A DNA stretch of 52,984 nucleotides from a virus. Shown one piece after another: positions 1,965 through 25,381 of this stretch. The position numbers and the translations under genes are program-made. The DNA is taken from the IMG/VR virus record IMGVR_UViG_3300028602_000019, positions 1 through 52,984 of that record. The stretch is one strand, 5' to 3'. The stretch's first letter is position 1; every line of letters starts with the position of its first letter. Under the pieces are notes generated by a model. The model was not told where the DNA came from and made no database searches. It saw nothing but the letters and a program-made list of their open reading frames with translations.

Positions 1965-2100
1965 CGAGCACCAATGTTAGTGTTAGTATTAGTAGCAGAA
2001 TTGCTCACACGCAAATAGAAGAACCCCGCAAAAGTACCGCCGTTCCAATAACCTCCAAAATAAGGGAAATCAGAAGCACCGACAAAGCCATTGTTGCTGT
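1965..2100 (-). repeat. DGR template repeat (TR)
   Basis: Aligns to 2163-2298 at a constant offset of 198, with 15 mismatches. Ten fall where the TR coding strand has A. The TR lies between the target gene and the RT. Confidence 0.85.
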
Positions 2101-2121
2101 GCCACATCACCGTTAAAAGAC

Positions 2122-2136
2122 GCAAAGTACCTTTGC
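2122..2136 (-). promoter_or_regulatory. Short hairpin just 3' of the VR-bearing gene
   Basis: GCAAAG-TAC-CTTTGC is a perfect 6-bp stem with a 3-nt loop, 5 nt after the stop of ORF 2141..3307. Confidence 0.4.
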
Positions 2137-2140
2137 TTTA

Positions 2141-7317: not shown

Positions 7318-7335
7318 GAGAAGATACCCTGATAC

Positions 7336-7364
7336 AGGATATGATATTTAGAAATATAAAGAAG
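7336..7364 (-). promoter_or_regulatory. Late promoter motif copy 1 (TTTATATTTCTAA on minus strand)
   Basis: Shared 13-nt TATA-like core plus a downstream ATCATATCCT-like box, ~38 nt upstream of the ATG at 7317. Confidence 0.6.
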
Positions 7365-7368
7365 AGGT

Positions 7369-7788
7369 TTATGTTTTTTCAGGCAGATTATATGTAGGGT
7401 ATGAAACGGTTTGTGGGTATCCTTTCTGATTGACTGTATCAGATACTTGAAGATTAAAGTTATCTATATATTGACAACATAATTCTGAATACTCTAAATC
7501 TACATTGTTACGAACGTTGCGAGCATATTTGAGATAGTCATCATCTGTTGCTGAGTGAAGTTTTACTCTTTCCTGTAAACGCTCTTCAACTGTCCATATT
7601 TTCACTTCGTACTGCTCTTTTATCAATTGTCCATCTTTTACTTTCCAAGCATAATGTTGCCTTATTGCAAATGTATTATTATATGTGGTATCATCTACTT
7701 CTATATTGCCCACAGATTCACTTTGCTCAAAATGCAATGGATACCTATCACAAACCCACCCATCTATATTATAATATATCTGTTTCAT
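7369..7788 (-). CDS. Hypothetical tail-module protein
   Basis: The ORF track gives a GTG start at 7806. The ATG at 7788 has an AGAGGT ribosome-binding site 6 nt upstream. Lies between a baseplate-type gene and the fibre gene. Confidence 0.5.
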   Translation of the reverse strand: MKQIYYNIDGWVCDRYPLHFEQSESVGNIEVDDTTYNNTFAIRQHYAWKVKDGQLIKEQYEVKIWTVEERLQERVKLHSATDDDYLKYARNVRNNVDLEYSELCCQYIDNFNLQVSDTVNQKGYPQTVSYPTYNLPEKT

Positions 7789-7798
7789 ATATGACCTC

Positions 7799-10678: not shown

Positions 10679-11898
10679 GTTACTATTTCTCCTGGTGATG
10701 CTGTATATGGTTTATACAATGTTTCTCCATATTTGAATCTCTCTGTAAGAGTTATAGAGTATTCTAATAATCCTGGAACGGTATCGCTGAATGTGGCAGA
10801 CATTGCCGTAACCGCTACATTCCATCCTTTCTGACTCTCACTCCCATCGGGTACAAAGTATATAAACCTATTGTCGGTAGGGTCCGTATTCCCTATATAA
10901 AAACAGTATCCTTTCAATACTACTTGTATCTTCGATAGAAGCCATGTTAATCCTATATAACAATATCCATGACCGTCGGGAGAATTACCTATGTCTATAT
11001 CTGTTGCAAAATTCAATTCGGTGTTTATGAAATCCCAATTGGATATCGTCTCTTCCCAGTCATATCTTTTCCCTGTAATTTTGAATGTGCGTACTGGACC
11101 GCTTGTATCGAATATCTGAGTGCGCGATGCAGGTTTGTCAGGCAACCCCATTGTACTGGTAGTACCAGAGATAGACATGCTGATTGAATCCACATGCTTT
11201 AATTCCCAAGGACACAAATATATATTGTGCAAAATTCCAAAGGAATCTGTGAATTGAATGTATTTTTTAACCGTTGAACCTGGTGATGTCACTCTTGTGA
11301 CAATCGCATACATGTTGGATATTGTAACGATGAGGTCTTTTGATGGGGTGGATGTTTCTTCGTTATACGTTATGGTGACATATTCTAAAGTAGCAGTGGA
11401 TAAGACAGAGGATGATATTGTCAACGAGAAATGCGTAGATTGGTCCGTAGTGCTCTTAGTCCAAGGATAAGAAGCCGAATATGTAGTTTCAACTGAAGTA
11501 CTATTATTTATATATGTAGCAGACATCGTGAAGCTTCCCTGCGTAGAAGGACGATTTATCGCATCAGGTTGAACCTCCACTAAACATACGCAAGATAAGA
11601 CTACACTATAAGCTGTACTTAAACTAGACAACATTCCTGTGGGCGTAGTTATGGTGAGCGATGCATCGCCTGAGGGTCTGGTGAAAGAAGTATATGCAGA
11701 TGTGTCTGTGATGATGGCTGGAAATTCAGAAGAACCGAATATATAGTTGACATTAGATACAGATGTAGAATACAAATTCAATATAGCAGACATAGTAGAT
11801 GTCGTGTTAGAGTATGTTGCATTTGTTGTAGTCGATGCTATCATTGGATTATTAGAACCGTATGTTCCCAATCTGAACGTATATGCTGAATCTTCCAT
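10675..11898 (-). CDS. Tail/baseplate structural protein (407 aa)
   Basis: Position in the tail module; its start overlaps the upstream gene. No motif recognised. Confidence 0.45.
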   Translation of the reverse strand: MEDSAYTFRLGTYGSNNPMIASTTTNATYSNTTSTMSAILNLYSTSVSNVNYIFGSSEFPAIITDTSAYTSFTRPSGDASLTITTPTGMLSSLSTAYSVVLSCVCLVEVQPDAINRPSTQGSFTMSATYINNSTSVETTYSASYPWTKSTTDQSTHFSLTISSSVLSTATLEYVTITYNEETSTPSKDLIVTISNMYAIVTRVTSPGSTVKKYIQFTDSFGILHNIYLCPWELKHVDSISMSISGTTSTMGLPDKPASRTQIFDTSGPVRTFKITGKRYDWEETISNWDFINTELNFATDIDIGNSPDGHGYCYIGLTWLLSKIQVVLKGYCFYIGNTDPTDNRFIYFVPDGSESQKGWNVAVTAMSATFSDTVPGLLEYSITLTERFKYGETLYKPYTASPGEIVT

Positions 11899-11899
11899 T

Positions 11900-12472
11900 T
11901 TAAGTACTTCCTGACGTATTATAGCCTAATAATGCATTCCTCTGTATAAAGTTCAAAGATACATCTATCGAATTAGGACTCTCCAAATCTAATGTTATAT
12001 CTATCGAATTGATGAATACGAATAGAGATTTGGGTTCGGTCTGCAATTCTGTTCTTTTCTCAATAATCTCTAAAGGAGTGAGATTGTCATAATCGCTTTT
12101 CTGCATAGTTGTAAGATTATACATTCTTAGAACATATGCGCTTTGTGTCATCTGAATTGCTGTTCTCATTGCGATTATAGCTTCAATGAATGCTTTGTTG
12201 GAGTATGTGTTAGGGTGGTCATCATCCGCATCAGATGGGTTCACACGGGTGCTTGTAAGGGCTATCTGCATGACTGCACCCGCTGTGCCATCTACAAACA
12301 CGGCTGTACTCGTGTCTTGCCCTAGAACGCCCACTGTTGACGATGTATAAGAGATTGTGAGAGGGAGTGTCGATGCACTTCCTATGAACATGAAATTAGA
12401 ATCTGCAACATAACCTGTATTGTCCGCAGGTACAGTTGAAATCCATAATGAGTATTGTCCGTTTAAAGACAT
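11900..12472 (-). CDS. Tail structural protein in the distal-tail-protein position (190 aa)
   Basis: Lies immediately downstream of the tape measure gene. The call is positional only. Confidence 0.4.
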   Translation of the reverse strand: MSLNGQYSLWISTVPADNTGYVADSNFMFIGSASTLPLTISYTSSTVGVLGQDTSTAVFVDGTAGAVMQIALTSTRVNPSDADDDHPNTYSNKAFIEAIIAMRTAIQMTQSAYVLRMYNLTTMQKSDYDNLTPLEIIEKRTELQTEPKSLFVFINSIDITLDLESPNSIDVSLNFIQRNALLGYNTSGST

Positions 12473-12476
12473 CTAA

Positions 12477-14411
12477 TCACCTGAAATATCCTTTGTTAGC
12501 CACGTTAGTCACATTCTTGCGTACAACCTGTTGGAAATCTGTTTTAGACATCACATCTCCTGTCAATTGCACCACTATTGTGTTATCTTTTCCTACTCCT
12601 TCTAATTCTTCATCTGTCAATCTGTATTCTCCTTCTCCGCCTTCCCCTGCAATTACTGGAATTCCTCCATTATATGCAGGAAATTTACCTCCGTTAGCAG
12701 CAGCTGTAAGATTAAGATTCAAATCCCCTGCATCCGAACCTGTGGAAGTAGTGGCTAAATTTGACAACGATTCTGATAGCTTGTCAATCGCTTCAAAATC
12801 TGTATCGGATAATGTTGTAGAATCTGAACTGCTCCCTCCTACGAAATTCATAAAGAAATCGGCGATTTTCAACATAGCTTTGAATACTGCTGTAATAGTT
12901 GTAACTAGATTGGATGCATTGTTCTTAATCCACCCCATCACATCCACTCCGAACTGCAAGAATATTTCTAGTAATCCTGCATTCATCAAAGCTTTGAATG
13001 CAGCCAATCCTTGTGTAATGAAATTTAATAATAGAACTTTGTTCTTTACTATGTCATTTACGAACGATATTGCGAAATCCAATAAATCTGGCATCAACTT
13101 CAAAATCTCTGGAAGAAACTCTTTTATGAATTGAACTGCTAATGCCGTAGCCTGTTCTAATAAACTAGATACTATGGATTCCAATTCTTCGTTTGTTATT
13201 CCTGTCAAACTGAAAAAATCAGAGAACTGCTGACCCGTTTCAATAGCCCAGTCTAATAATTCTAATACATAAGGTAATAATACTAATGCGAAAGAATTCA
13301 TAAACGGCATGAAGAATAATGTGAATGCAAGATTCAGCAATTCTAACATGGCTTTGAGGATAGGAGATGTGAGTGCTATCTTTTTGAACAATTTGAATAT
13401 GGATGTGAGTGTAGAAGCGAAGATGTTGAATCCAGATTGAATAGCCTGAACCGCAATAGATATGATTGATGAAATTACCTTTAGAATTGCAGAGGCTAAT
13501 GAAGCTGCAACGGCTGCTGATGACTTTCCACTTCCTTCTTCACTATCGCTTCCTCCGAAAAATGAAGATATTATGCCTGAAATTGAAGATAATAAAGACG
13601 ATAAGAAGCTGAAAGCAGATGATATACTCGCTGCCATCCCACTCATAATTGATATAATCGCACTCATCGGGTCTTCAAGCATATTGCCGAATCCTGACAT
13701 AATTGCAGCTCCTGCTTGACCAACAGAAGCCATAAAAGAAGTCATAGATGCGTTGACAGCAGAAATCGTCTTACCTGCTACATCTACCAAATTATATAGT
13801 GTTCCCCATTTGGATTTACCACCACTGGATTCCTCATTTCCTGCACTAGGTGCGCTACCAGGATTTGATAGAGCAGGTTGCCCTTCTGTACTATTTGGAG
13901 AGACCGATGCTTTAACATTCAGAATATAAGCTTTAGAAGATGCCTGCTTCTCATGAGTTTGCTCATTAATCTTAGGAGAGAGGTTACTCATTGAAGTTCT
14001 GGCTTTCTCTCCACCTACTTTACGATATACATCTAAAGAGCTTGCAACATCTGCAACACCAGACATTATCTTATCTAAGGCTACTAAACGAGAAGTGTCT
14101 CCTTTAGCGGTAGCAGAAGCTCCCTCTTTATCTGCTGTTTTCTTTATATCCCTTAATGTTAAATATACTCCTTTCAGAGTACTCTGAAAAGAAGCAGATT
14201 GAGAAGAGTACAATTTGTATTTTTCTGATTCATCTTCGCTGACACTCGCAATAGTTTTGATAACATCATCTAAAGATGAGGCTTGTACTTTCATCTCTGT
14301 CGAGTTCTTGTCTAAAGAATCTGTAAGGGATTTGATTGAACGCATGACCTCATGGTCTAGTAACAGAGCACTCTGGTCCAACTTATCGGCATACGTCCAA
14401 TCCCCTGGCAT
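12477..14411 (-). CDS. Tape measure protein (paralog C of three)
   Basis: Follows the G/T chaperone pair. Long helical protein with Ser/Ala/Gly-rich hydrophobic segments. Shares a ~300-aa C-terminal module with ORFs 16408..18402 and 18407..21061. Confidence 0.7.
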   Translation of the reverse strand: MPGDWTYADKLDQSALLLDHEVMRSIKSLTDSLDKNSTEMKVQASSLDDVIKTIASVSEDESEKYKLYSSQSASFQSTLKGVYLTLRDIKKTADKEGASATAKGDTSRLVALDKIMSGVADVASSLDVYRKVGGEKARTSMSNLSPKINEQTHEKQASSKAYILNVKASVSPNSTEGQPALSNPGSAPSAGNEESSGGKSKWGTLYNLVDVAGKTISAVNASMTSFMASVGQAGAAIMSGFGNMLEDPMSAIISIMSGMAASISSAFSFLSSLLSSISGIISSFFGGSDSEEGSGKSSAAVAASLASAILKVISSIISIAVQAIQSGFNIFASTLTSIFKLFKKIALTSPILKAMLELLNLAFTLFFMPFMNSFALVLLPYVLELLDWAIETGQQFSDFFSLTGITNEELESIVSSLLEQATALAVQFIKEFLPEILKLMPDLLDFAISFVNDIVKNKVLLLNFITQGLAAFKALMNAGLLEIFLQFGVDVMGWIKNNASNLVTTITAVFKAMLKIADFFMNFVGGSSSDSTTLSDTDFEAIDKLSESLSNLATTSTGSDAGDLNLNLTAAANGGKFPAYNGGIPVIAGEGGEGEYRLTDEELEGVGKDNTIVVQLTGDVMSKTDFQQVVRKNVTNVANKGYFR

Positions 14412-14415
14412 TTAT

Positions 14416-14652
14416 TTACCTTCCTTTCTTCTTACCGAACAGAGCTTCTTTTAAAGCACCCACCATCATCTTGGATGCTCTCTCTTCTTTGGCATAATAA
14501 TCTACAATAAGAAGTTTCATGTCTTGAACGGTCATATTATCCCAATCTTCAGAAGTTTTACCTCCGTTCATCATCCACTGAGCTTTAATAGAGAGTAATT
14601 GTATCTCGGAATTATCAGTTCCATTAACTATTCCTCTTCTATAACCTTCCAT
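14416..14652 (-). CDS. Tail assembly chaperone, T-like part
   Basis: Small ORF between the G-like chaperone and the tape measure. It lies in the -1 frame relative to the upstream ORF, and that frame stays open back to a CCCTTTA heptamer. Confidence 0.5.
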   Translation of the reverse strand: MEGYRRGIVNGTDNSEIQLLSIKAQWMMNGGKTSEDWDNMTVQDMKLLIVDYYAKEERASKMMVGALKEALFGKKKGR

Positions 14653-14657
14653 AGCTC

Positions 14658-15047
14658 TTATTTCTGAACCTTGCCACCTGTCCGCGCTAAAGGGAACTGT
14701 ATGCCTTCCTGGATTGCGACCATAATGTCTGTAAGAGTTTCCATCGGCAAATCTGATAATTCTTCATCTGTAATCGGTCTGAATGTGCCATCTTCCTCTT
14801 CAACGAGAGTACTGAGCTTGATATTGAACATCGTAGCTTTTATCTTATATTTCCCAGATATTAACTTCTGCAAATCTTCCTCTGTTTTCCACCCGATACC
14901 GTCTTTAGAGGCGCATTCAGTAATGTAATCTATCAATTGCATATTTGCAACACCTTTGGGAAGGCTGACACGAAGACATCCCTCTCCGCCATACTTAGTC
15001 ATATCTATCTTTTTTCCAATCGAACTCGGTACTTTGAATGCTGTCAT
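14658..15047 (-). CDS. Tail assembly chaperone, G-like
   Basis: 129-aa acidic protein between the major tail protein and the tape measure, which is the canonical synteny. An AGGAGA ribosome-binding site lies upstream. Confidence 0.55.
   Translation of the reverse strand: MTAFKVPSSIGKKIDMTKYGGEGCLRVSLPKGVANMQLIDYITECASKDGIGWKTEEDLQKLISGKYKIKATMFNIKLSTLVEEEDGTFRPITDEELSDLPMETLTDIMVAIQEGIQFPLARTGGKVQK
14688..14694 (-). promoter_or_regulatory. Candidate -1 programmed frameshift heptamer C CCT TTA
   Basis: The zero frame reads TTC CCT TTA. Slipping -1 reads CCC TTT AGC GCG GAC AGG TGG CAA GGT TCA GAA ATA AGA GCT ATG, with no stops, directly into ORF 14416..14652. Confidence 0.5.
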
Positions 15048-15072
15048 TTTTTCTCTCCTTTAAATAATATGT

Positions 15073-16341
15073 TTAAGCAGGTACATATCCTACTGCGAAT
15101 CTGATTTTTCTTGCACGTAAATCTGGCTCATCCATAATCGCACTATCTACGTTCAATGTTCTGTTTTCACTTCCAACATAAACGGTTGTCAAATCAACAT
15201 CTAAAAATATAGTCGCAACAGTCGTTCCTGCTGAAGTGTCATCCGACCTGAATTTCATATAAGGAATGGCGTTGGGCTGTTTTGAAGTTGTATATGCATT
15301 TCCTATCGTAACTCCGCTTACAGCTTGGTCTGCAAAAGTAGTTCCATACATATAGCTGAGATATTTATTAGGATTGTTGGAATAGGTGGATGTGCTCAAC
15401 TCCACTGTCTGTGTTCCGATACTAAACGATGAATAATAATTCTTCAAACAGTTACCGCGCTTTTCAGAATTGTTGGAAAGAGTGACACTCATAGAATCGG
15501 TTTGTGCAATCGGCACATACCCTGCGCCAGTATCTGTGTCCACACTCAAACATCCTGTTGCAAGAACTGTTGTAGGAACATCTGAAAGAATAGCGTTATA
15601 ATCAAAAACATAAGAAGTTGTTGAAATCCATTCATTCAATGCAACTCCTTCAATAGAGAATTTTACAGCTGCATCACTGCCTGATTCCTGAGTGATAGTG
15701 AATGAATCAATCATACAGCCTGTAATCACACCATATTCATTCAATCCGCCAAATGTTGTATTGCTGTTGATAATTTCATAACCTAAATCAAAATATGTAG
15801 GTCCATCTAGATTAACATATGAATAAACATTAATATTCATGCCTGCGGTAGCAGTAGCTGTTGCCTTATATGTATCAAAATCATATTCTAAGATGGGTGT
15901 CGTATATGTAGTTCCGCTTGTAGTTACATAGCCCACTGTCGCGCTTCCTTCTGCCAGTGCAAATGTAGATGAGGATGTAATAAGAATAGGCTGAGACAAT
16001 ACTCCGTATTCCAGCCATCCAGAATACTCTGGTACAAAAGCACCACTCAATGAAAATGATACTTCGTAATTTCCTGATGTTTCTGTAGTGAATTCACGAT
16101 TTCCGATATCGGTAAGATAGTTATTGTTTCTGCTACGATTTATAGAAATCTCGATTCCAGCACCAACTCTCTGAGTGAGATGATGAAGACAATCTTCTTT
16201 CGTGCTTGCAGTATAATCTGACCTGAATATGGGTAAGCGTGTTCCGCTTATACCGCCTCCTACATAAGGTAACTCGGCAGGACCTAGACCTGAGGGTCTT
16301 GTAAGTTTACCTATTCCAACATTTGCTCTATATCCTGACAT
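15073..16341 (-). CDS. Major tail protein (422 aa)
   Basis: Has its own late promoter copy and sits immediately upstream of the chaperone pair and tape measure. No separate sheath/tube pair is seen. Confidence 0.55.
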   Translation of the reverse strand: MSGYRANVGIGKLTRPSGLGPAELPYVGGGISGTRLPIFRSDYTASTKEDCLHHLTQRVGAGIEISINRSRNNNYLTDIGNREFTTETSGNYEVSFSLSGAFVPEYSGWLEYGVLSQPILITSSSTFALAEGSATVGYVTTSGTTYTTPILEYDFDTYKATATATAGMNINVYSYVNLDGPTYFDLGYEIINSNTTFGGLNEYGVITGCMIDSFTITQESGSDAAVKFSIEGVALNEWISTTSYVFDYNAILSDVPTTVLATGCLSVDTDTGAGYVPIAQTDSMSVTLSNNSEKRGNCLKNYYSSFSIGTQTVELSTSTYSNNPNKYLSYMYGTTFADQAVSGVTIGNAYTTSKQPNAIPYMKFRSDDTSAGTTVATIFLDVDLTTVYVGSENRTLNVDSAIMDEPDLRARKIRFAVGYVPA

Positions 16342-16364
16342 GAGTTAACTCCACCCCATAAGGG

Positions 16365-16392
16365 GTTATAAATTAGGATATGTGATTTAGAA
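16365..16392 (-). promoter_or_regulatory. Late promoter motif copy 2
   Basis: The minus strand reads CCTTTTATATTTCTAAATCACATATCCT, ~43 nt upstream of the ATG at 16341. Confidence 0.6.
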
Positions 16393-16407
16393 ATATAAAA
16401 GGTCTAA

Positions 16408-18402
16408 TCACTGAAAAACATAAGAATAAGAAGAGTCCAAATCTAAATCTTCCACTAGCTTCTCTATAACTTCTTTGTTATATACTTTACCTTTACATCT
16501 GATGATTATATTATTACAACCCCTGAATTGAGACAGCTTAGATTCAGGCACTATATATTCCCCCTCTCCTGCCTCTGAAATCAATCCTACGATTCCACCT
16601 ACAGATGGGGATATTTTTCCTCCGTTCGCGAATGCTTCATATTGGAAACCCTCCAATCCTTTGAAAACTTGGTCATATATCACCCAGTATGCAGCTGCTC
16701 CTGCTATGGCACCTGTAGCGGCTCCTACAGCGATACAGACAGGTATAGAGGCACCGAAGGTGAACCACGAACTCATAGCTCCTGCAATGGCTCCTGCAAT
16801 GGCTCCTGCAGCTGTACCTATCCCTACGAGTAATGCAAACGTCCATAGTTCTATATCGCTTATAAATATACCTACGGCTTGTAAACATAATTTACATAAG
16901 CTTAGTAAAAAGTTCACACAATTCGTGACAGTTTCAGAATTTTTACTCATCCATGTAAAAAACGCTGTTCCATAATCTATAAGATTCACTATAAGATTCT
17001 CTTTTATCATAGTCGTAAATGCAGATATGCCTTTAGACAACATCTGGAATATCAAATCTTTATTATTTAGTATAACCTCTATGAATCCTAACACAAATTC
17101 TAAGAAAGGCTTAACTAAAGGCACGAAAACTGGTAGGAAATCTTTCAAGAATTTAGTCGCCAATTCTTCTAATTCATCTACTATATTTGACATCGCATCA
17201 TTAAAAGCTTCATCCGATTTCAATTGAGAACGATAATTAATACCTAACTGCACTCCTGTAGTAATCATGATGGAAATCATTGATGTTATTGCATTCATTA
17301 TAGGTGTTCCGAATACAATGAAGAAAGTCACAAAGAACAAACTGCAAACCAATTCTATATAAGACAGTATCCCCTCTAATACTTTAGATGTTTCAGCTAT
17401 GGATTTCATGATTTTCATTATAGAAGTCAATAATGAAATGAACAATGTAAATCCTAACTGGAACATAGAAGAAATAAGAGATGTGATTCCACTAAGAGAA
17501 TTAGCTATAAGCTCCATAGTTGTTCCTAATGATTTCATAAATGTGTTGGATGCATCTTCCGCCTTCTCCGCTCCCCCCTTCTTTTTGTATGCTTTAGATA
17601 TCTTATCTAATCCTGAACTGGTTGCGTCCGTTACTGTTGCTCCTATGTTGATTGCATAAGATGTCATGGTAATATATCCTGACATTACTTCTATTATAGC
17701 ATGTAACGGTCCTGCTTTCAAATCACCGAATGAAGCTCCTAACTGAGATGCTCCTTGATTCAATAAGCCTGAACTATCATTCATTCCTTTTACAATAGTT
17801 TCCAAACTTGCATTTATAGCATTACCTACTTTGAGATACTGACCTAAGAATATAAGCATATAAGGAGGTTTGACTAATATATCTCCTGTGTCAGATAGAT
17901 TCTTCATCGAAGTATCTTTGACTCCACCCACATTCATTACAAATAATGCTTGGAAATTAGATAAGTCTACCCTTTTCTTATAAGCTTCTCCTTCTGTCCA
18001 AGTATGTTGTGTTTTTATATAATTTTTACTGGTAATATACTGTGCCGATTTGAACTTCTTATCCTTATTGAATATGGATTGCGCTGTTTGAATATGTGCT
18101 ATCAGAGATGCGAGTCTCCCTGCATTGAGGTCATCTCCGTGCTCGTGTAGATTTGTTGCTATTTTAGAAGATGTGGAAATGAGCTTAGAGGATACTGCAT
18201 TGACACGGCTTTTACCTGTGCTCTTCAAATCATCTATTTCAGACTTATAATCAGATTCTAATTGTACAATCTTTGATATTTGTGTGTGTTGCAACCTACT
18301 AGAATATTTTATACTGTTTGTAATTTTAGATAGGTCTGATTCTATCGCATTAGTACTCCAATCTATATAATCGAAATCTATGTTGGAATTGTATTTGCTC
18401 AT
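16408..18402 (-). CDS. Tape-measure-like protein, paralog B
   Basis: The ORF track start is 18438. The ATG at 18402 has an AGGTGA ribosome-binding site and avoids overlap with the upstream gene. Shares the modules S.L.SI.K..K..A.TS, FLP...L.P.L.F and GG..P..GG.....GE.EYI.PES with ORFs 12477..14411 and 18407..21061. Confidence 0.65.
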   Translation of the reverse strand: MSKYNSNIDFDYIDWSTNAIESDLSKITNSIKYSSRLQHTQISKIVQLESDYKSEIDDLKSTGKSRVNAVSSKLISTSSKIATNLHEHGDDLNAGRLASLIAHIQTAQSIFNKDKKFKSAQYITSKNYIKTQHTWTEGEAYKKRVDLSNFQALFVMNVGGVKDTSMKNLSDTGDILVKPPYMLIFLGQYLKVGNAINASLETIVKGMNDSSGLLNQGASQLGASFGDLKAGPLHAIIEVMSGYITMTSYAINIGATVTDATSSGLDKISKAYKKKGGAEKAEDASNTFMKSLGTTMELIANSLSGITSLISSMFQLGFTLFISLLTSIMKIMKSIAETSKVLEGILSYIELVCSLFFVTFFIVFGTPIMNAITSMISIMITTGVQLGINYRSQLKSDEAFNDAMSNIVDELEELATKFLKDFLPVFVPLVKPFLEFVLGFIEVILNNKDLIFQMLSKGISAFTTMIKENLIVNLIDYGTAFFTWMSKNSETVTNCVNFLLSLCKLCLQAVGIFISDIELWTFALLVGIGTAAGAIAGAIAGAMSSWFTFGASIPVCIAVGAATGAIAGAAAYWVIYDQVFKGLEGFQYEAFANGGKISPSVGGIVGLISEAGEGEYIVPESKLSQFRGCNNIIIRCKGKVYNKEVIEKLVEDLDLDSSYSYVFQ

Positions 18403-18406
18403 AAAA

Positions 18407-21061
18407 TCACCTGTAAGATGCCCTGTTGTATTCATCACTTATCGCAGCTTGAATCTCTGTAGAGATATTATCTACACCATAGATGTCTCCCTGAAATTCC
18501 AATATAATTGTGTTGTGTCCTCTTACCATTCCCATTCTAGATTCAGGAATTATATATTCTGTCTCTTTCTCTCCGACTATTATCATTTTACCACCAGGAG
18601 TTGAGGGTATATATCCTCCTTTTTCAAATGCAAACAGAGATTCGTAGAAAACCAATCCAATCAATGCGCCCAATCCTGCTCCTGGTATTCCAGATTTAGC
18701 AACTAATTCAGCAATTGTTTCAGCTAAGAATCTCTTAGACATAAATTGTCCTATTACTTGAAGTGTACCTCCTGCACCAATGAATGCTAAAGCAATTGAA
18801 ATTAGTGAAACTATCGCAGCTCCTAATAGTACACAAAATGCCATAAGATGTTTTGTCACCCATGACATGAATCCCAAAGCCCAATCTGCAACGGTAAAAG
18901 TATATTTAAGAACTTTTAAAATCGCATCGTTATTATTCTTCAAAAACTTCATGGCTTGCACTCCGAAGGATAAGAACACTGCTAGGATTCCATTTTTCAA
19001 CATAGCATTGGCTGCATCTATGCCGTATTTTACCATATCACATATTGTTTGTATATTGTCTGCGAATACACTCATCATGAATAACGCAAAACTTAATAAA
19101 TTCGGGATTAGTTTAATCATATCTGGCAAAAAATCCTTTATAAAACTTATAGCCAATTCTTTTATCTGTTCATCTGAATCACTTAAAAACTTGGCTATAC
19201 TGGTAAGTATGGTGGTCATGGCTTCTGAAAACGTAGAAAACAATTGCCCGTTGAGAATCATTTGAGATAAGAATGAAAAGAATGTTGTCAGTAAGGAATC
19301 ACCTATCATAGTAAAGAATGGCAAGAATATCATGGTAATTATCAATGTGACTATGTTTGAAATCTGTTCCATGAGCTTGGATGTGGATGCTAAGGTTTTA
19401 AGCATTTTCAGAATTGTACTTAAAATTCCTGTGAACATGGAAACTCCTGATTGAATAACAGATGAAATCACAGACATACCTAATGCGAAAGCCGTGAATA
19501 TAGCTGATATTAAATTGATAATCATCGTCACAACCTGTGTTGCAGAAGATGCTTTACCTGTTGCACCTGTTTTCCCCTTCATCTTCCCTACGATAGAGAA
19601 TATCTCACTACACAATTCGATAGAAGAAGATACTACCAATAAAGCTGCGGATATACCTTTAGTCATACCTGACATAAAAGACACTAAGGATGATGTAACT
19701 GAACTAACTGGATTTGCCAATCCTGACATCATATCCTGTGCTCCATCTGAAAACAAAGAAACCGCTTTGCTCATCTCTGCATTCGTGTTCATCAATGCTT
19801 GACAGAATTGTGCTGTTGTTTTAACAAATTCAGATACGACTGGTGACTGCAATGCAGTGATGATTTCGCCAGGGGGTGCAGGTCTGCCATCCTTCATCTT
19901 TTCAACGGATTTGTCTGGATTGACAGCCGTTGCTTTGGGTGATTTGGTTGCTTCAGGATATTTTCCTTCCACTTTGCCTACTTCTGGAACGTAGGGGTTT
20001 CCTCTAACGTGATACTTCTCCCCAGCACGTATGGATATGATTGCGGATTTAACGGTGTCCACTACCAATTCATTGATAGCTTTACGATAATCTTCATTGG
20101 AATCAGCATCATCTATCATGCTTTTAGCTATTCTTCCATATGCTCTTTTGTCATCGGAATCTATCGCTTTCTGAATAGAAATAGAATTAGAATCTGCACT
20201 ACTTGCAGGTTTGCGTTTCTTGGTTGCATCCTGAATAGAAGATTCCACACAACTTTCTATGAATTGTTCTTCCGCTTTGGCTTCTTTCAATCTCTGATTA
20301 TTTATGGCATTTTTGAATTGATTGTCTATCCTCTTGAAATCGTTAGGTGTACCCTTCATACTGTCTATGTTCTTCAAAATCTTATTGATAGAACTTTTAC
20401 TCATTCCTAAAGCAGAAGCTCTTGCGGATACTTCTTCTTTCTTGGTTCTTTTCTCATAGTATAATTGGGTATAATGCTGTGTGTATTTATTCCCTACAGA
20501 TTTTCCTACACCTCTGGTTTTATATTTACCTTCACCGAATACAGTAGATGCTAATTGTGTTAATTCAACTAATGTTTTCCTTACTTGAGCCTGTCCGCTT
20601 TTAGATAGCTTTCCGCCATTAAGTGCTAATTGAAGAGACTTGGTAGCATCGTTTATTTGATTCTTCAGACGTTTCAAATCCGATTTGGGGTCTAACGATA
20701 TGCGCTTGAAATCTAGTTCGAACATCTTGCTTTTCAAGTCATACCCGTTACCGTACTCTTCCATGAAGTTTATCAGATGCTGATGAGACTTTATATACGT
20801 TGGAATCTCTTCTTCAAAAACATCTAATGTATCTTGCAGTTTGGAAGTTAGTGCTGATTCTCTTTCAGATTTAGAATCACCTATGAAATTATCTTCTAAC
20901 TCTGGTGTCGTTGGGGTTTTTCTAGCAGATGCTTGCTTTATCTTCTTATTATTTTCTCTTTCTGTTTTCTTTACTCTTTTGAGCGATTCTTCTAAGGATG
21001 TATCATATTCTCTCTTGGTATTGGATTCTCCCATCCTTCCGTAGTTCGCTCTTCTAGGCAT
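18407..21061 (-). CDS. Tape-measure-like protein, paralog A (884 aa, basic N-terminus)
   Basis: Has the same C-terminal module as the other two paralogs. The N-terminal ~400 aa are Lys/Arg/Glu-rich and helical. Confidence 0.65.
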   Translation of the reverse strand: MPRRANYGRMGESNTKREYDTSLEESLKRVKKTERENNKKIKQASARKTPTTPELEDNFIGDSKSERESALTSKLQDTLDVFEEEIPTYIKSHQHLINFMEEYGNGYDLKSKMFELDFKRISLDPKSDLKRLKNQINDATKSLQLALNGGKLSKSGQAQVRKTLVELTQLASTVFGEGKYKTRGVGKSVGNKYTQHYTQLYYEKRTKKEEVSARASALGMSKSSINKILKNIDSMKGTPNDFKRIDNQFKNAINNQRLKEAKAEEQFIESCVESSIQDATKKRKPASSADSNSISIQKAIDSDDKRAYGRIAKSMIDDADSNEDYRKAINELVVDTVKSAIISIRAGEKYHVRGNPYVPEVGKVEGKYPEATKSPKATAVNPDKSVEKMKDGRPAPPGEIITALQSPVVSEFVKTTAQFCQALMNTNAEMSKAVSLFSDGAQDMMSGLANPVSSVTSSLVSFMSGMTKGISAALLVVSSSIELCSEIFSIVGKMKGKTGATGKASSATQVVTMIINLISAIFTAFALGMSVISSVIQSGVSMFTGILSTILKMLKTLASTSKLMEQISNIVTLIITMIFLPFFTMIGDSLLTTFFSFLSQMILNGQLFSTFSEAMTTILTSIAKFLSDSDEQIKELAISFIKDFLPDMIKLIPNLLSFALFMMSVFADNIQTICDMVKYGIDAANAMLKNGILAVFLSFGVQAMKFLKNNNDAILKVLKYTFTVADWALGFMSWVTKHLMAFCVLLGAAIVSLISIALAFIGAGGTLQVIGQFMSKRFLAETIAELVAKSGIPGAGLGALIGLVFYESLFAFEKGGYIPSTPGGKMIIVGEKETEYIIPESRMGMVRGHNTIILEFQGDIYGVDNISTEIQAAISDEYNRASYR

Positions 21062-21069
21062 GATTCCTC

Positions 21070-21549
21070 TTAGATTTGATGACCTGCTAAGCTGACATTA
21101 GGAAGCATCTGGTAATATTTCTTCAATTGTATCGTGATGTTATATCTGAAGAAATTATAAGTAGGATAAATAGGGGTGTATGATGAGAACCACATCGTTT
21201 GCCAATCATTCCCTGGACGGATACGGTATAAAGCCAGAATCTTCATGATTTGGTCAACTGCTGCTAAAGACAGTTCTCTGCTCATGGTTTGTATATTCAA
21301 TCTGATATTACGATGCTGTGTAACACTATCGAATGAAATTCCTCTGGGCTCATTCACAATCTCATCAGCATAGATTTTTACTGCAATACATCCGCTTCCA
21401 TAATCTATCGAAGCGATATCTGTCTGGTCATTGAAAAACAGAAGAGTTTTGTCCTTCATCAATCCCTCTGCCCAGTTGTTTTCCAATATGTCATGAATCA
21501 TTTGACCATCATCATCTAGAAAACCTTCTTCACCATACTCGTTAGTCAT
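21070..21549 (-). CDS. Neck/head-tail joining protein (159 aa)
   Basis: Position after the adaptor-like gene, preceded by a late promoter copy. Positional call. Confidence 0.4.
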   Translation of the reverse strand: MTNEYGEEGFLDDDGQMIHDILENNWAEGLMKDKTLLFFNDQTDIASIDYGSGCIAVKIYADEIVNEPRGISFDSVTQHRNIRLNIQTMSRELSLAAVDQIMKILALYRIRPGNDWQTMWFSSYTPIYPTYNFFRYNITIQLKKYYQMLPNVSLAGHQI

Positions 21550-21570
21550 TATGATATCCTCTAATGATAT

Positions 21571-21598
21571 AGGGTATGATGTTTAAAAATATAAAAAG
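21571..21598 (-). promoter_or_regulatory. Late promoter motif copy 3
   Basis: The minus strand reads CTTTTTATATTTTTAAACATCATACCCT, ~41 nt upstream of the ATG at 21549. Confidence 0.6.
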
Positions 21599-21605
21599 AA
21601 AGAGT

Positions 21606-22787
21606 TTATATTCCGCCAGTGATTACGTAATCGGACCAGGGTCTCATTAAATCTTTTAATTCCCATGTCCACATGTTGATTGTCTCCGACCTCAACGGGT
21701 CGAATCCAGGAGACTGCGCGAACTTCTGTCTGAACCAATCGGTTTGAACTATGAGCATAGCTGTTTTTAACAGTGTTGCACGTTTGATATCTTTAGGAAC
21801 AGGACCATAACCATATCTATATGTCACTCTTACGGCAAAATCCTTCTGCAATACGATAGACTTTATGAACATGATACCATTACGTCCATCCATCCAAACA
21901 TTATCTTGCGGTACAGTTTCCCAACTGCTTCCGAACAATCTTATCTCTACTAAATCACCTTTAGTATAATCTATATCTCTAACCTTAACTCTGGTCAACT
22001 TGACGGGTGCTCCCCTATATAGGTTGTTGGATGCAAAATTTCCACCAGAAGGAATATATATGCTGTAATATGCTCCTGCGCCTGTTAATCCCGTTTCAAC
22101 GTTACGTATCTCTCCATCGACCCTTCTTTCCGTCCATGCTTGTCTAGTAGTGTTCTCGATAAAAGCTTCCGCTTCCACTATACGATTAGCTAGAATATTA
22201 TATGAAGGTCTGGATGTTTCTGATACTTTGAATGGTGCACCGCTATTAGAATTATCTACCATCATCAAGAAATCTGCAACTTCTTGGGGAGTACAGTATG
22301 TAGGATTCTCAGATAGAGATAAATATAAATCACTCAAGGTAGCTGTAAATGCTCTGGATGATTTCGGATTCTTGATATGAAATCCTATTTTGACAACGAA
22401 GGAATCATTGAAATCTTCTGCTCTGACTAAAGCTGTTAGAAGCAACGTGTTCTCTTTTCCCAACAGCATATCTGTTAGCCCATATGTAGCGGTGATTCCG
22501 TTACAATCTTCCAAATATATCTCAAAGGTATCGAAGAAAGAAGGGATAGATGTTGCTTTTATGTTAAAATAAATCTTATTCTCATCAGAGATGGATATTC
22601 CGTCTTCATTGACATAATAGAACCATGCTTCATAATCTGTGCTCATGCTGTCAGATATGAATTTAAATTTTGTTCCACTTGTATCTATGGACGCAACAGT
22701 TACTGAGTTGATAACAACAGAAGATGTACCTTCATACCCTCCGAATTTAAAGACCCACGAACTTCCAGGATACAATACTTGTGTCAT
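21606..22787 (-). CDS. Head-tail adaptor-like protein with N-terminal extension (393 aa)
   Basis: Lies downstream of the capsid genes. The C-terminal half (..PKDIKRATLLKTAMLIVQTDWF..) resembles the end of gp6-type adaptors, judged from memory. Confidence 0.4.
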   Translation of the reverse strand: MTQVLYPGSSWVFKFGGYEGTSSVVINSVTVASIDTSGTKFKFISDSMSTDYEAWFYYVNEDGISISDENKIYFNIKATSIPSFFDTFEIYLEDCNGITATYGLTDMLLGKENTLLLTALVRAEDFNDSFVVKIGFHIKNPKSSRAFTATLSDLYLSLSENPTYCTPQEVADFLMMVDNSNSGAPFKVSETSRPSYNILANRIVEAEAFIENTTRQAWTERRVDGEIRNVETGLTGAGAYYSIYIPSGGNFASNNLYRGAPVKLTRVKVRDIDYTKGDLVEIRLFGSSWETVPQDNVWMDGRNGIMFIKSIVLQKDFAVRVTYRYGYGPVPKDIKRATLLKTAMLIVQTDWFRQKFAQSPGFDPLRSETINMWTWELKDLMRPWSDYVITGGI

Positions 22788-24091: not shown

Positions 24092-25381
24092 TTACTTCAA
24101 GTGGACTATCTTTCCGAGACCTTTGAACATTCCCTTGTACTGAACCTCACCAAACTGGTTCATATCACAAAGTCTTGTGTATCTCTGGGTAATCAACGGG
24201 TTGTCGCTCATGAGAACATTAGGTGCTCTGAGAACTCCCATGAAGAGGTTCTCTGAATCTGCAAAGTACATTCTTGAGATACCATCGTCTGCGTGTCCGC
24301 CTGTGGTCGGTCCATATCCTTTTCCGACTTCTCTGTCGGGAATGATAATCATGTTCTGGTATTTTGCAACCTGGAAACCAGTCTCGCGACCTTCAAGAGT
24401 CTTGACACCGTTCTGGTCGAACTGAGCCGAAACCTGACCCTGATATCTCTGTTGAGGCTGGAGAATCATCTGCAATTTGGTCATTGTATCTGGACCAGTG
24501 ATGATTACCTTACCCTTCGAGGAATAGTTATCCCAGTATGGGTTAAGCGTATTGATTGTGGTATCAATCATAGACAGTGTAAGCTGTCTGAGCGTAGCAT
24601 CACCAGTCGTAGTTCCTGCCGTGTAGTTCGCATCGACATAACAGTTTATGTTATTGTCTGCAACTGCTCCAGAAGCTGCTGGATTCCTATATTTAGCCAG
24701 AGGCTGTGCCGAATCGGTGGATGGGAGTTGTGTGTACATCTTCCACGGAACGTTGTATCCTGCTGGAACGTACTGTCCTTCAGTGTAGTTGGAGATAATC
24801 CTATCAAGTGATTCTGCTCCCACATATTCTGTAGCTCCGTAAGGGTTGGCTCCAGTAGGTGTCGGGTCTTCTACACGTCTGAGCAAGTCGTTGTTGATTG
24901 TCCAGAGGAATGTATCGGCTTCGTTCTTGACCTGTGTTTCCCAGAGCATGACATCGTCAATCTGCTTGGAACCAATCTCTACCATACCGAGATTCATTGC
25001 GAATCTGTGTGCGAAAAGCTTATAAGGCTGTTCGAACTGGAGATAGTTTCCGACAACAGGGTTTGGTACACCTGCTCCTCTCGCGAGACCTGATGTCTGT
25101 GATTTGGTCATAGACATGCTCTCTTGGAATCTGTATGCTGTTCTGTACGGCTGTTGACCGATTGCAGTAAGTGCATATGCTTTGTTATATGCGAGGTTCT
25201 GAACGTAAGGTCCATAAACCGCATTCATTGCACCATCTGTATTAATTCCGATAGTTCCTTCTCCTTTCAATCTCTCAACGGACCTCATATCGTTTCCCCA
25301 TGAGAAATCAAATACTTCTTCCATTGAGGAATAAGTAGGGAAAACCCCGTCGGATGTAAATCCTGTCATAATCGAATTCAT
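24092..25381 (-). CDS. Major capsid protein (429 aa, presumed HK97 fold)
   Basis: Canonical order portal, protease/scaffold, capsid. ATGA start/stop coupling, locally higher GC and a terminator hairpin downstream. The fold is not verifiable by eye. Confidence 0.6.
   Translation of the reverse strand: MNSIMTGFTSDGVFPTYSSMEEVFDFSWGNDMRSVERLKGEGTIGINTDGAMNAVYGPYVQNLAYNKAYALTAIGQQPYRTAYRFQESMSMTKSQTSGLARGAGVPNPVVGNYLQFEQPYKLFAHRFAMNLGMVEIGSKQIDDVMLWETQVKNEADTFLWTINNDLLRRVEDPTPTGANPYGATEYVGAESLDRIISNYTEGQYVPAGYNVPWKMYTQLPSTDSAQPLAKYRNPAASGAVADNNINCYVDANYTAGTTTGDATLRQLTLSMIDTTINTLNPYWDNYSSKGKVIITGPDTMTKLQMILQPQQRYQGQVSAQFDQNGVKTLEGRETGFQVAKYQNMIIIPDREVGKGYGPTTGGHADDGISRMYFADSENLFMGVLRAPNVLMSDNPLITQRYTRLCDMNQFGEVQYKGMFKGLGKIVHLK

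What the first reader, a model, noticed from the sequence alone, without database searches (positions are those of the whole stretch)
12477..21061. Three paralogous tape-measure-like genes, two of them placed upstream of the major tail protein gene
Seen: ORFs 12477..14411 (644 aa), 16408..18402 (~665 aa) and 18407..21061 (884 aa) share a collinear ~300-aa C-terminal architecture with four elements. First, a hydrophobic Ser/Ala/Gly-rich region. Second, (T/I)L(T/S)(S/T)I.K..K..A.TS..(L/M) followed by a membrane-like helix. Third, F(I/L)K(E/D)FLP....L.P.LL.F. Fourth, a terminal GG(K/Y)..P...GG......GE.E(Y)(I/R).(P/T)(E/D)(S/E) block and a beta-like ..N(T/I)I(V/I/L)...G.(V/I). tail. Only the 644-aa copy sits in the canonical position after the G/T chaperones. 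The other two lie between the neck genes and the major tail protein. Established: tailed viruses normally encode a single tape measure protein, present as a small homo-oligomer in the tail lumen, which sets tail length. Inference: either a hetero-oligomeric tape measure built from three paralogs, or two paralogs recruited as ejected, membrane-inserting pilot or internal proteins. The 884-aa copy has a long basic N-terminus suited to DNA binding. I do not know of a described precedent.
Basis: partly seen in the sequence, partly recalled or inferred. Interest (0 to 1): 0.7.

Follow-up and report, generated by a model that had tools for sequence, protein, structure and literature searches.

The report
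Three tape-measure paralogs, one archaeal virus
This uncultured, probably archaeal, tailed virus carries three anciently diverged copies of the tail "tape measure" gene where related viruses carry one, which suggests a mixed tape-measure/DNA-conduit complex that has not been described before.

Summary
On the minus strand, A (12477-14411, 644 aa), B (16408-18402, 664 aa) and C (18407-21061, 884 aa) are true paralogs: BLASTP E 3e-30 to 4e-39, and Z 14-18 against local-composition shuffles. They share about 390-435 collinear residues. This includes a 157-residue core of nearly fixed length and a 69-70-residue C-terminal block.

A sits in the classic tape-measure slot, after a T5/P74-26-type double-domain tail tube protein (15073-16341) and a G/GT chaperone pair with a conserved CCCTTTA -1 slip site. 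B and C lie between a 159-aa neck-region gene and the tube gene.

All eight genomes of this metagenomic clade keep C-B-tube-G-T-A. A, B and C are each monophyletic (bootstrap 99-100) and B+C are sisters (95-96). Sister lineages with homologous flanking genes have one longer tape measure (1101-1236 aa) and no B or C. Family members match tape-measure PHROGs down to E 1e-10.

Function is inferred only. I favour co-assembly of all three in the tail lumen, anchored by the shared C-terminal block and then ejected to form the membrane conduit (confidence about 0.45). The main rival is A as the sole ruler, with B and C as accessory ejected proteins. I found no published precedent. Verdict: a new variant of a known kind.

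The parts
18407..21061 (-). Paralog C, 884 aa. It has a tape-measure-family core and C-terminal block, plus a type-specific N-terminal arm of about 400-460 aa with a conserved basic tip. An extra Gly/Ala-rich hydrophobic segment precedes the terminal block.
   Evidence: BLASTP to A 4e-39 and to B 1e-37. phrog_58 tape measure 1.4e-4. Orthologs in 8/8 clade genomes. Monophyly bootstrap 99-100. Hydropathy. Basic tip. AF2 model nearly all helix, pLDDT 50.
16408..18402 (-). Paralog B, 664 aa, starting at ATG 18402. It has the same core and C-terminal block, a type-specific N-terminal arm of about 240-265 aa, and Gly/Ala-rich hydrophobic segments before the terminal block. It is the tandem sister of C.
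   Evidence: BLASTP to A 3e-30 and to C 1e-37. phrog_2276 tape measure 2e-4. AGGTGA before ATG 18402. B+C sister bootstrap 95-96.
12477..14411 (-). Paralog A, 644 aa. This is the copy in the canonical tape-measure position, directly after the G/GT chaperone genes. Its core is the most like the single tape measures of sister lineages. The linker before its terminal block is hydrophilic.
   Evidence: Position. Core scores 158 bits against a profile of the outgroup single tape measures (sister lineages), versus 101 (B) and 91 (C). Orthologs P0001-P0020.
15073..16341 (-). Tail tube protein, 422 aa, of the double-domain T5 pb6 / P74-26 type. That type forms trimeric rings with pseudo-sixfold symmetry (my prior knowledge of the T5 and P74-26 structures).
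   Evidence: AF2 pLDDT 84, pTM 0.83. Foldseek PDB: 8ed0 P74-26 tail tube 9e-12, 8xan 1.4e-11, 7qg9 (T5 tail tip core proteins) 8e-11 and 6e-10, T5 tail tube 9iny 5e-8, pb6 crystal structure 5ngj 9e-6.
14658..15047 (-). Tail assembly chaperone G, 129 aa. The -1 slippery heptamer C CCT TTA lies at 14694-14688.
   Evidence: Sequence read directly. The same heptamer occurs in relative L003.
14416..14652 (-). T part of the GT frameshift chaperone. The 78-aa ORF is in the -1 frame of G and is open from the slip site. The predicted GT fusion is 210 aa.
   Evidence: Frame arithmetic and sequence. In L003 the two ORFs overlap.
16342..16407 (-). 66-nt intergenic gap between B and the tube gene. It holds a TATA-like TTTTATATTT and a GGGGTGGAG ribosome-binding-like motif. 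A gap of similar size precedes the tube gene in the relatives, while other gene junctions are 4-8 nt. It may start a separate transcription unit.
   Evidence: Sequence. Gene coordinates of the relatives. Promoter function is inferred, not tested.
21070..21549 (-). 159-aa conserved protein directly upstream of C. It is in the neck / tail-terminator position, but its fold was not determined.
   Evidence: Orthologs precede C in clade genomes. In single-tape-measure relatives the ortholog directly precedes the tube gene (L010 33% identity at 8e-29, L011 2e-16).
21606..22787 (-). 393-aa protein with a head-tail adaptor-like C-terminal part.
   Evidence: phrog_17057 1.6e-19 and phrog_442 head-tail adaptor 2e-6. 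Ortholog in L010 at 40% identity and in vir335.
7799..12472 (-). Three distal-tail / baseplate-position genes downstream of A (190, 407 and 959 aa). All are single copy and syntenic in the relatives. They are the presumed docking partners of the shared C-terminal block.
   Evidence: Synteny. BLAST to L010, L011 and L014 orthologs. No family hits. The role is inferred from position only.

Best explanation
A, B and C are all virion tape-measure-family proteins.

Shown:
- They are homologous to one another and, through family members, to phage tape measure families.
- Each keeps a core of nearly fixed length containing membrane-like helices, and a 69-70-residue C-terminal block.
- The set has been kept in every genome of a deeply diverged clade.
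- Sister lineages make do with one longer tape measure.

Inferred mechanism:
- The shared C-terminal block is the module that docks a tape measure into the tail-tip complex, as solved tails show for other tape measures.
- Because B and C keep that block under strong, type-specific constraint, they are loaded into the tail lumen together with A as a mixed bundle. The stoichiometry is unknown. It could be 1:1:1 in a trimer, or a six-chain bundle as in the archaeal virus HFTV1.
- A is served by the adjacent G/GT chaperones and probably sets tube length.
- C's extra ~170-200-residue N-terminal arm, with its basic tip, would reach towards the neck and the DNA end.
- On triggering, all three are expelled and their hydrophobic helices build the conduit through the host membrane.
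- The duplication would have hard-wired into separate genes the non-equivalent chain roles that a single tape measure plays by conformational switching in HFTV1.
For: - Paralogy.
- Exactly three copies in the window and one in sister loci.
- The order C-B-tube-G-T-A is kept in 8 of 8 clade genomes. In the six genomes aligned globally, A-A identity to the window copy is about 40% and B-B and C-C about 27-33% (genomes).
- Each type is monophyletic at 99-100% bootstrap.
- Segment lengths: a core of about 157 residues and a terminal block of 69-70 residues across types and genomes.
- The terminal block has type-specific signatures conserved across orthologs. C reads VAEKETEYIIPESK..IRGHNN, B reads GE.G.GE.AIP.SK..LFRG.NN, and A reads GEGGEGEYKLSE.ELKEIGKDTT.
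- Retention is mosaic. A is closest to the outgroup (the single tape measures of sister lineages) in the core, and C is closest in the terminal block: 67 bits versus 53 (A) and 46 (B).
- Tape-measure PHROG hits are weak for A, B and C (E 1.4e-4 to 0.056) but significant for family members. P0123 scores 1.4e-10, 6.5e-10 and 1.3e-9.
- There is only one G/GT pair.
- Sister lineages L010, L011 and L013 have homologous adaptor, 159-like, tube, G, T and distal genes, but one tape measure of 1101-1236 aa and no B or C.
- Solved tails show tape-measure trimers with C-termini anchored in the baseplate core (JBD30, T5, 80alpha; PMC11445458).
- HFTV1 has a homo-hexamer with two alternating C-terminal conformations that contact two different partners (PMC12494034).
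Against: - There is no direct evidence that B or C is in the virion.
- B and C are separated from A by the tube and chaperone genes, and probably by a promoter. That is not the layout expected for subunits of one complex.
- C is about 200 residues longer than A and B, and the N-terminal arms share no detectable homology. An in-register bundle along the whole tail is therefore not obvious.
- The presumed docking partners are single-copy genes, so the tail tip itself gives no sign of broken symmetry.
- The C-terminal block has no detectable match to tape-measure C-termini in solved structures. Its docking role is an analogy.
Confidence: 0.45

Rival explanations
1. A alone is the tape measure, as a homo-oligomer that sets tail length. 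B and C are tape-measure-derived accessory ejection or pilot proteins. They would be carried in the tail lumen above or beside A, in the neck, or in the capsid, and released with or before the DNA. Their job would be to strengthen or extend the membrane conduit, or to escort the DNA end. This would be functionally comparable to the three ejection proteins of podoviruses.
For: - Only A is in the canonical slot next to G/GT.
- B and C lie with the neck-region genes, upstream of a likely promoter.
- A's core is the most like the single tape measures of sister lineages.
- A may be orthologous to those single tape measures, since A+B+C monophyly has only 24-37% support.
- B and C evolve faster, at about 27-33% identity to the window copies versus about 40% for A.
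- B and C carry extra Gly/Ala-rich membrane-like segments that A lacks.
- C has a basic N-terminal tip.
Against: - B and C keep the C-terminal block at least as well as A. C is the closest of the three to the outgroup consensus. That is hard to explain if they no longer use the tape-measure docking site.
- Core length is conserved between A, B and C.
- No separate chaperone for two very hydrophobic proteins is evident.
Confidence: 0.35
2. B and C are not virion components. They would be membrane proteins made in the infected cell, derived from the tape measure and used for another purpose. Examples are superinfection exclusion by blocking the incoming tape-measure channel, or a role in tail assembly or lysis.
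For: - Both have several membrane-like helices.
- They are separated from A by a likely promoter.
- No family or structural hit assigns them a virion role beyond homology to A.
Against: - They are embedded in the structural module, on the same strand, with 4-8-nt junctions to the neck gene and to each other. This position is invariant in 8 of 8 genomes.
- The C-terminal block and core length are conserved as in A.
- The same hydrophobic helices occur in A and in the single tape measures, so they do not point to a resident membrane protein.
Confidence: 0.1
3. The similarity is an artefact: low-complexity or compositional resemblance, or one or two of the ORFs are decaying duplicates.
For: - The proteins are rich in Ser, Ala, Gly and hydrophobic residues.
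- Direct PHROG hits for the window proteins are weak.
Against: - Z is 14-18 against local-window shuffles.
- Composition-adjusted E-values are 1e-30 to 1e-39.
- The ORFs are intact, and each type has its own conserved motifs across orthologs only about 27-42% identical to the window copies.
Confidence: 0.02

Closest known systems
Canonical siphovirus tape measure proteins (lambda gpH, T5 pb2, SPP1 gp18, TP901-1 TMP; JBD30 gp46)
   Same: - A has the classic gene context: tube gene, G/GT chaperones with a -1 frameshift, then the tape measure, then the distal tail genes.
- The fold is predicted to be all-helical, with hydrophobic helices thought to form the DNA conduit.
- Family members hit tape-measure PHROGs.
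- The C-terminus is expected to anchor in the tail tip.
   Different: - There are three diverged paralogous genes instead of one.
- Two of them lie upstream of the tube gene.
- The terminal blocks are type-specific.
- There is no Pfam hit and no sequence match to any solved tape-measure segment.
HFTV1 gp40, tape measure of a haloarchaeal siphovirus (PMC12494034)
   Same: - It is an archaeal siphovirus.
- Its tape-measure chains occupy non-equivalent positions. Three C-termini dock in the hub and three fold back onto the Dit-like connector.
- This provides a structural rationale for specialised paralogs.
   Different: - HFTV1 uses one 341-aa gene as a homo-hexamer.
- No sequence similarity was detected here.
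- Its tube protein is a single-domain hexamer, whereas the tube protein here is of the double-domain T5 type.
Protein DBA35596.1 of Caudoviricetes sp. vir335 (BK063680 / NC_134205), host Methanomassiliicoccales
   Same: - It is the only GenBank virus record hit when two family members were used as queries (tblastn 9e-55 to family member P0143).
- It shares the core helix and the C-terminal block (hhalign probability 98.7%, E 4e-16).
- It sits in the canonical slot after the major tail protein and two small ORFs.
   Different: - It is single copy and only 371 aa.
- It is annotated as hypothetical. The record's annotated 'tail tape measure protein' is a different, unrelated 641-aa gene.
Single long tape measures of sister metagenomic lineages (P0103 1236 aa, P0123 1152 aa, P0118 1101 aa; loci L010, L011, L013)
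   Same: - The flanking genes are homologous: adaptor 40%, 159-like 25-33%, tube 37-39%, distal-tail gene d1 (the 190-aa gene downstream of A) 37-48% identity.
- They have the same core and terminal block.
   Different: - There is one gene, about twice as long as A.
- The tube gene follows the 159-like gene directly, with no B or C.
Podovirus ejection proteins (T7 gp14/gp15/gp16; P22 gp7/gp16/gp20)
   Same: A set of three proteins expelled ahead of the DNA to build a trans-envelope channel. This is a functional analogy only, drawn from my prior knowledge.
   Different: - They are not homologous to each other or to tape measures.
- They are stored in the capsid and occur in short-tailed viruses.

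Membership tests
Tail tape measure protein (TMP) | Sequence homology to established tape-measure families | tested here: met
   Direct hits are weak: A phrog_5493 0.056, B phrog_2276 2e-4, C phrog_58 1.4e-4. Family members linked to A, B and C at E<1e-30 hit tape-measure PHROGs significantly. P0123 scores 1.4e-10, 6.5e-10 and 1.3e-9, P0118 1.5e-6, P0111 2.6e-7, and the vir335 371-aa protein 5.5e-7. There are no Pfam hits.
Tail tape measure protein (TMP) | Gene lies directly downstream of the tail tube gene and the G/GT frameshift chaperone pair | tested here: met
   Met for A only. Not met for B and C, which lie upstream of the tube gene.
Tail tape measure protein (TMP) | Long, almost entirely alpha-helical protein with hydrophobic, membrane-like segments | tested here: inconclusive
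   Hydropathy shows 2-4 membrane-like segments in each protein. The AF2 model of C is nearly all helix but has pLDDT 50 and pTM 0.25. A and B were not modelled.
Tail tape measure protein (TMP) | One gene per genome, whose product forms a homo-oligomer in the tail lumen | tested here: not met
   There are three paralogous genes in the window and in 8 of 8 clade genomes. The oligomeric state could not be tested.
Tail tape measure protein (TMP) | Present in the virion; protein length sets tail length; C-terminus anchored in the tail tip | not testable with these tools
   This needs virion proteomics, cryo-EM or genetics. The profile of the C-terminal block found no solved tape-measure C-terminus.
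Double-domain tail tube protein (T5 pb6 / P74-26 type) | Fold match over both tube domains to solved members | tested here: met
   AF2 pLDDT 84, pTM 0.83. Foldseek: 8ed0 9e-12 (TM 0.52/0.62), 8xan 1.4e-11 (0.55/0.73), T5 and DT57C tail tip and tube entries 8e-11 to 5e-8, pb6 crystal structure 5ngj 9e-6. The ring stoichiometry was not tested.
G/GT tail assembly chaperones | Two small ORFs before the tape measure, the second in the -1 frame and reached through a slippery heptamer | tested here: met
   C CCT TTA lies at 14694-14688(-). The -1 frame is open into the 78-aa ORF. The heptamer is conserved in L003. Frameshifting itself has not been shown.
Podovirus-type ejection proteins | Homology to T7 gp14-16 or P22 gp7/16/20 families | tested here: not met
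   No such family appears among the PHROG or Pfam hits of A, B or C.

The most novel reading that the evidence does not exclude
The tail lumen of this virus clade holds an obligate hetero-oligomeric tape measure. A, B and C would each fill a distinct, non-interchangeable chain position: one each in a trimer, or pairs in a six-chain bundle. Each would dock through its own version of the C-terminal block. C's basic N-terminal arm would contact the DNA end. This would be the first tape measure and DNA-conduit complex built from specialised paralogs.
Probability: 0.35. Interest if true: 0.8.

Novelty: new variant of a known kind. Interest (0 to 1): 0.62.

Why it matters
In every described long-tailed virus, the tape measure is treated as one gene whose product fills the tail as a homo-oligomer, sets tail length, and then forms the DNA conduit.

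A clade that has kept three specialised paralogs over deep divergence offers a natural dissection of those roles. Sister lineages with the same tail genes keep a single copy. The roles that could be separated are length setting, tail-tip docking, membrane insertion and contact with the DNA end.

If the three co-assemble, this would show symmetry breaking inside the tail tube. It would also give a genetic counterpart to the alternating chain conformations seen in HFTV1.

Two practical points follow:
- It gives annotation rules for an unannotated family. There are 325 representative clusters, none with Pfam hits among the ten members scanned. This includes the true tape measure of vir335, which is currently labelled hypothetical.
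- It adds to the very small body of knowledge on entry machinery of viruses of gut methanogens.

Tried and rejected
- **GenBank phages.** Megablast of 12000-22000 and tblastn of C and of the tube protein against GenBank phages found nothing.
- **Collection scans.** Scans of GTDB genomes and IMG/VR with family alignments found nothing or failed. No prophage or named host genome was obtained.
- **Solved structures.** Profile searches of PDB sequences with the full family and with the C-terminal block returned only chance coiled-coil hits.
- **Pfam.** No hits on A, B or C, and none on the ten family members scanned.
- **AF2 of C.** The model was too poor (pLDDT 50) for a fold search, so none was run.
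- **Multimer modelling.** Modelling of A+B+C is not possible with the tools, which take single chains and window sequences only.
- **N-terminal arms.** Profiles of the A, B and C arms find no credible match to each other or to the N-termini of the single tape measures. The best E-value was 3e-4 in a tiny database.
- **First bootstrap run.** It failed because the Kimura correction overflowed. It was redone with BLOSUM and Poisson distances.
- **vir335 neighbours.** I considered that its annotated 641-aa 'tape measure' or its 513-aa neighbour might be further paralogs. Both were rejected (hhalign probability 0.1%; no tape-measure PHROG).
- **Sheath/tube reading.** I considered that the 422-aa and 129-aa genes might be a sheath and tube (myovirus). 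The tube fold of the 422-aa protein and the G/GT frameshift signal rule this out.
- **Literature.** Searches for multiple, duplicated or paralogous tape measure genes gave only irrelevant uses of the phrases.

Full report
**1. What is in the sequence**

All genes of the finding are on the minus strand. In transcription order the module is:
- portal-like gene (27909-29645; phrog_18178 1e-12);
- an 844-aa gene;
- capsid protein (24092-25381; weak major-head PHROG hit, and tblastn hits to the capsid genes of vir519 and vir335);
- two small genes;
- a 393-aa adaptor-like protein (21606-22787; phrog_442 2e-6);
- a 159-aa protein (21070-21549);
- C (18407-21061, 884 aa);
- B (16408-18402, 664 aa);
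- a 66-nt gap;
- a 422-aa protein (15073-16341);
- a 129-aa ORF and a 78-aa ORF;
- A (12477-14411, 644 aa);
- three distal-tail-position genes, a fibre gene, and a reverse-transcriptase cassette.

B most likely starts at ATG 18402, which is preceded by AGGTGA. C's stop codon lies 4 nt upstream of that ATG.

**2. The paralogy is real**

- Composition-adjusted BLASTP gives E-values of 3e-30 (A-B), 4e-39 (A-C) and 1e-37 (B-C).
- Smith-Waterman scores are 392-446. When one partner is shuffled within 10-residue windows, which preserves local composition, scores fall to 84-113 (Z 14-18). Against whole-sequence shuffles Z is about 50.
- The stretch from F331 to G488 (A numbering) is 157-159 residues in all three paralogs of six genomes. 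It comes out slightly shorter (151-156) in the TAG-recoded L012, whose lengths are undercounted. The terminal block is 69-70 residues.
- The N-terminal arms are about 205 residues in A, 190-215 in B and 350-410 in C. They are not detectably related to each other.
- A family HMM run against all six-frame ORFs finds exactly three copies in the 53-kb window.

**3.

- The 422-aa protein gives a confident AlphaFold2 model (pLDDT 84, pTM 0.83).
- Its best PDB matches are the P74-26 tail tube (8ed0, 9e-12), another phage major tail protein (8xan), and T5/DT57C tail tube and tail-tip proteins.
- It is therefore a double-domain tube protein. That type builds trimeric, pseudo-hexameric rings (my prior knowledge).
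- The 78-aa ORF lies in the -1 frame of the 129-aa ORF.
- A textbook slippery heptamer, C CCT TTA, sits at 14694-14688. The -1 frame is open from there into the 78-aa ORF. The same heptamer is present in relative L003.
- These two ORFs are thus a G/GT chaperone pair, and A is in the canonical tape-measure slot.
- I considered a myovirus reading, in which the 422-aa protein would be a sheath and the 129-aa protein a tube. These results rule it out.

**4. The family is a tape-measure family**

- Pfam finds nothing, and direct PHROG hits for A, B and C are weak tape-measure matches.
- An exhaustive profile search of 1.84 billion representative proteins found 325 relatives at E<=1e-3 and 56 at E<=1e-30.
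- These fall into five groups:
  - A-like proteins;
  - B-like proteins;
  - C-like proteins;
  - a set of 690-1236-aa proteins;
  - a large set of ~370-430-aa proteins that share only the core helix (SPLLQAIE..FNLAMTLFFMPLGNKL) and the terminal block (GGYIP..GG...GEGGEGEYIIPESK).
- Several of these hit tape-measure PHROGs significantly, down to 1.4e-10.
- The only GenBank virus record hit by two family members used as queries is vir335, assigned to Methanomassiliicoccales. There a 371-aa family member sits in the canonical slot but is annotated as hypothetical.

**5. Evolution**

- Eight genomes of the clade all have the order [~160-176 aa]-C-B-tube-G-T-A. They are the window, L001, L003, L005, L006, L007, L012 and L014. 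(In L014 the small upstream gene was not called.)
- All-against-all bit scores separate three orthologous groups: 200-1187 bits within a type and 60-180 between types.
- In neighbour-joining bootstraps, A, B and C are each monophyletic (99-100%) and B+C are sisters (95-96%). A+B+C monophyly relative to the single tape measures is unresolved (24-37%).
- The best description is one canonical copy (A) plus an extra copy that later duplicated in tandem into B and C.
- Three sister-lineage contigs (L010, L011, L013) carry clear homologs of the adaptor, the 159-aa protein, the tube protein, G, T and the first distal protein.
- In those contigs the tube gene follows the 159-like gene directly, and there is a single tape measure of 1101-1236 aa.
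- Retention of ancestral features is mosaic. Against profiles of the single tape measures, A scores best in the core (158 bits versus 101 and 91). C scores best in the terminal block (67 versus 53 and 46).
- Each type has its own conserved version of the terminal block.
- B and C evolve faster than A (27-33% versus about 40% identity to the window copies), but all are clearly under constraint.

**6. How it most likely works**

Nothing here shows function directly.

From solved tails, tape measures are trimers whose C-termini are anchored in the baseplate core and which are expelled to form the DNA channel (JBD30, T5, 80alpha; PMC11445458). In the archaeal virus HFTV1 the tape measure is a homo-hexamer whose chains alternate between two C-terminal conformations that contact two different partners (PMC12494034).

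Four observations point to B and C still using the tape-measure docking site:
- they keep the terminal block under strong type-specific constraint;
- core length is essentially conserved across the three types;
- there is a single G/GT pair;
- the set is invariably retained.

They would therefore travel in the tail lumen with A as a mixed bundle, and their hydrophobic helices would join in forming the membrane conduit. C's longer arm has a conserved basic tip, present in 15 of 18 C-type proteins and contrasting with the mostly acidic tips of A and B. It could reach the neck and the DNA end. I give this reading 0.45.

The main rival (0.35) is that A alone measures the tail and B and C are accessory ejected proteins. 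This fits four points:
- their position upstream of a probable promoter (TTTTATATTT plus a ribosome-binding-like motif in the 66-nt gap);
- their faster evolution;
- their extra Gly/Ala-rich hydrophobic segments;
- A's greater similarity to the single tape measures.

A non-virion membrane role (0.1) fits poorly with their fixed place inside the structural module. An artefact is excluded.

**7. Comparison with what is known, and novelty**

A passes the positional and homology tests for a tape measure. B and C pass homology but not position, and the one-gene-per-genome expectation is not met.

Literature searches for multiple, duplicated or paralogous tape measure genes returned nothing relevant. 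I know of no precedent either. The compendium paper that described vir335 is not in the searchable library.

I therefore class this as a new variant of a known kind. It is not a new kind of system. It is a conserved, previously undescribed three-gene version of the tape measure.

**8. Host and context**

The evidence for an archaeal host is circumstantial:
- the capsid protein and tape-measure family link to viruses assigned to Methanomassiliicoccales and Methanofastidiosa;
- a recombinase-like protein (31398-32543; PHROG UvsX-like recombinase 1.7e-15) looks RadA-like from its sequence;
- none of 49 long ORFs ends in TAG, which fits pyrrolysine-decoding gut Methanomassiliicoccales, where TAG stops are as low as 1.6% (PMC4153887).

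No CRISPR or prophage link was obtained.

Noticed in passing
L012 (whole 14.7-kb contig) and L014 (genes at 3125-17191): Two relatives of the window virus have TAG recoded as a sense codon. Each has 158 in-frame TAGs in its 8-9 long structural genes, no in-frame TAA or TGA, and genes ending only in TGA or TAA. The public protein set translates TAG as Gln (P0104 and P0105 versus the L012 translations). The data point elsewhere. In L012, TAG aligns preferentially with Ala in orthologs (21% of aligned residues, 2.65x background; 6 of 15 conserved columns, including otherwise invariant Ala in KKIALTSP). L012 is short of GCN codons (5.0% versus 7.2% in the window), while its Gln codon usage is already normal. 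The identity of the inserted residue is open. No tRNA was found on these loci (L012 was scanned; L014 was not).
   Followed up: partly
window, 49 long ORFs on both strands: TAG is never used as a stop codon (TGA 26, TAA 23, TAG 0). It is also absent in frame from these ORFs. This fits a host that reads TAG as pyrrolysine, as gut Methanomassiliicoccales do (1.6% TAG stops in Ca. M. alvus, PMC4153887).
   Followed up: partly
window 797-3307 (-): A diversity-generating retroelement. The reverse transcriptase is at 797-1729 (PF00078 4.7e-15). The template repeat is at 1958-2097. The variable repeat is at 2156-2295, inside the 3' end of the 388-aa tail protein gene (phrog_5302 2e-35). The repeats are 89% identical, and 11 of 15 mismatches fall at template adenines on the coding strand.
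   Followed up: partly
L009 = BK063680.1 (vir335), locus 14698-15813 and 17330-19255: The public annotation of vir335 probably mislabels its tape measure. The 371-aa 'hypothetical protein' DBA35596.1 sits in the canonical slot, belongs to this family and hits tape-measure PHROGs. The 641-aa gene annotated as 'tail tape measure protein' shows no tape-measure signal here.
   Followed up: partly
L001 1-1987, L003 1-2700, L006 1-1980, L007 3770-6940, L014 1-2577: In relatives, the tail module is preceded by a large terminase or a ribonucleotide reductase gene. Most of these carry precomputed intein or homing-endonuclease Pfam hits: Intein_splicing and LAGLIDADG_3 in L003, L006 and L007; weak or faint hits in L001; LAGLIDADG_3 only in L014. 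In the window the module follows the head genes instead. The module's left boundary is therefore a recombination point.
   Followed up: no
window 3304-7317 (-): The 1337-aa fibre-like protein has three near-identical internal repeats of about 110 residues (…VNIIESISENGTPIEIINKNINIYVPTALSDLSDDSTHR…), visible in the translation. It gives tail-fibre PHROG hits (phrog_32680 1e-7).
   Followed up: no
L003 10001-12274 and 5833-8001: In relative L003, both A (+~80 residues) and B (+~21-27 residues) carry insertions at the same place, the linker just before the C-terminal block. C there changes by only ~5 residues. This is a single case of possible co-variation between A and B.
   Followed up: no
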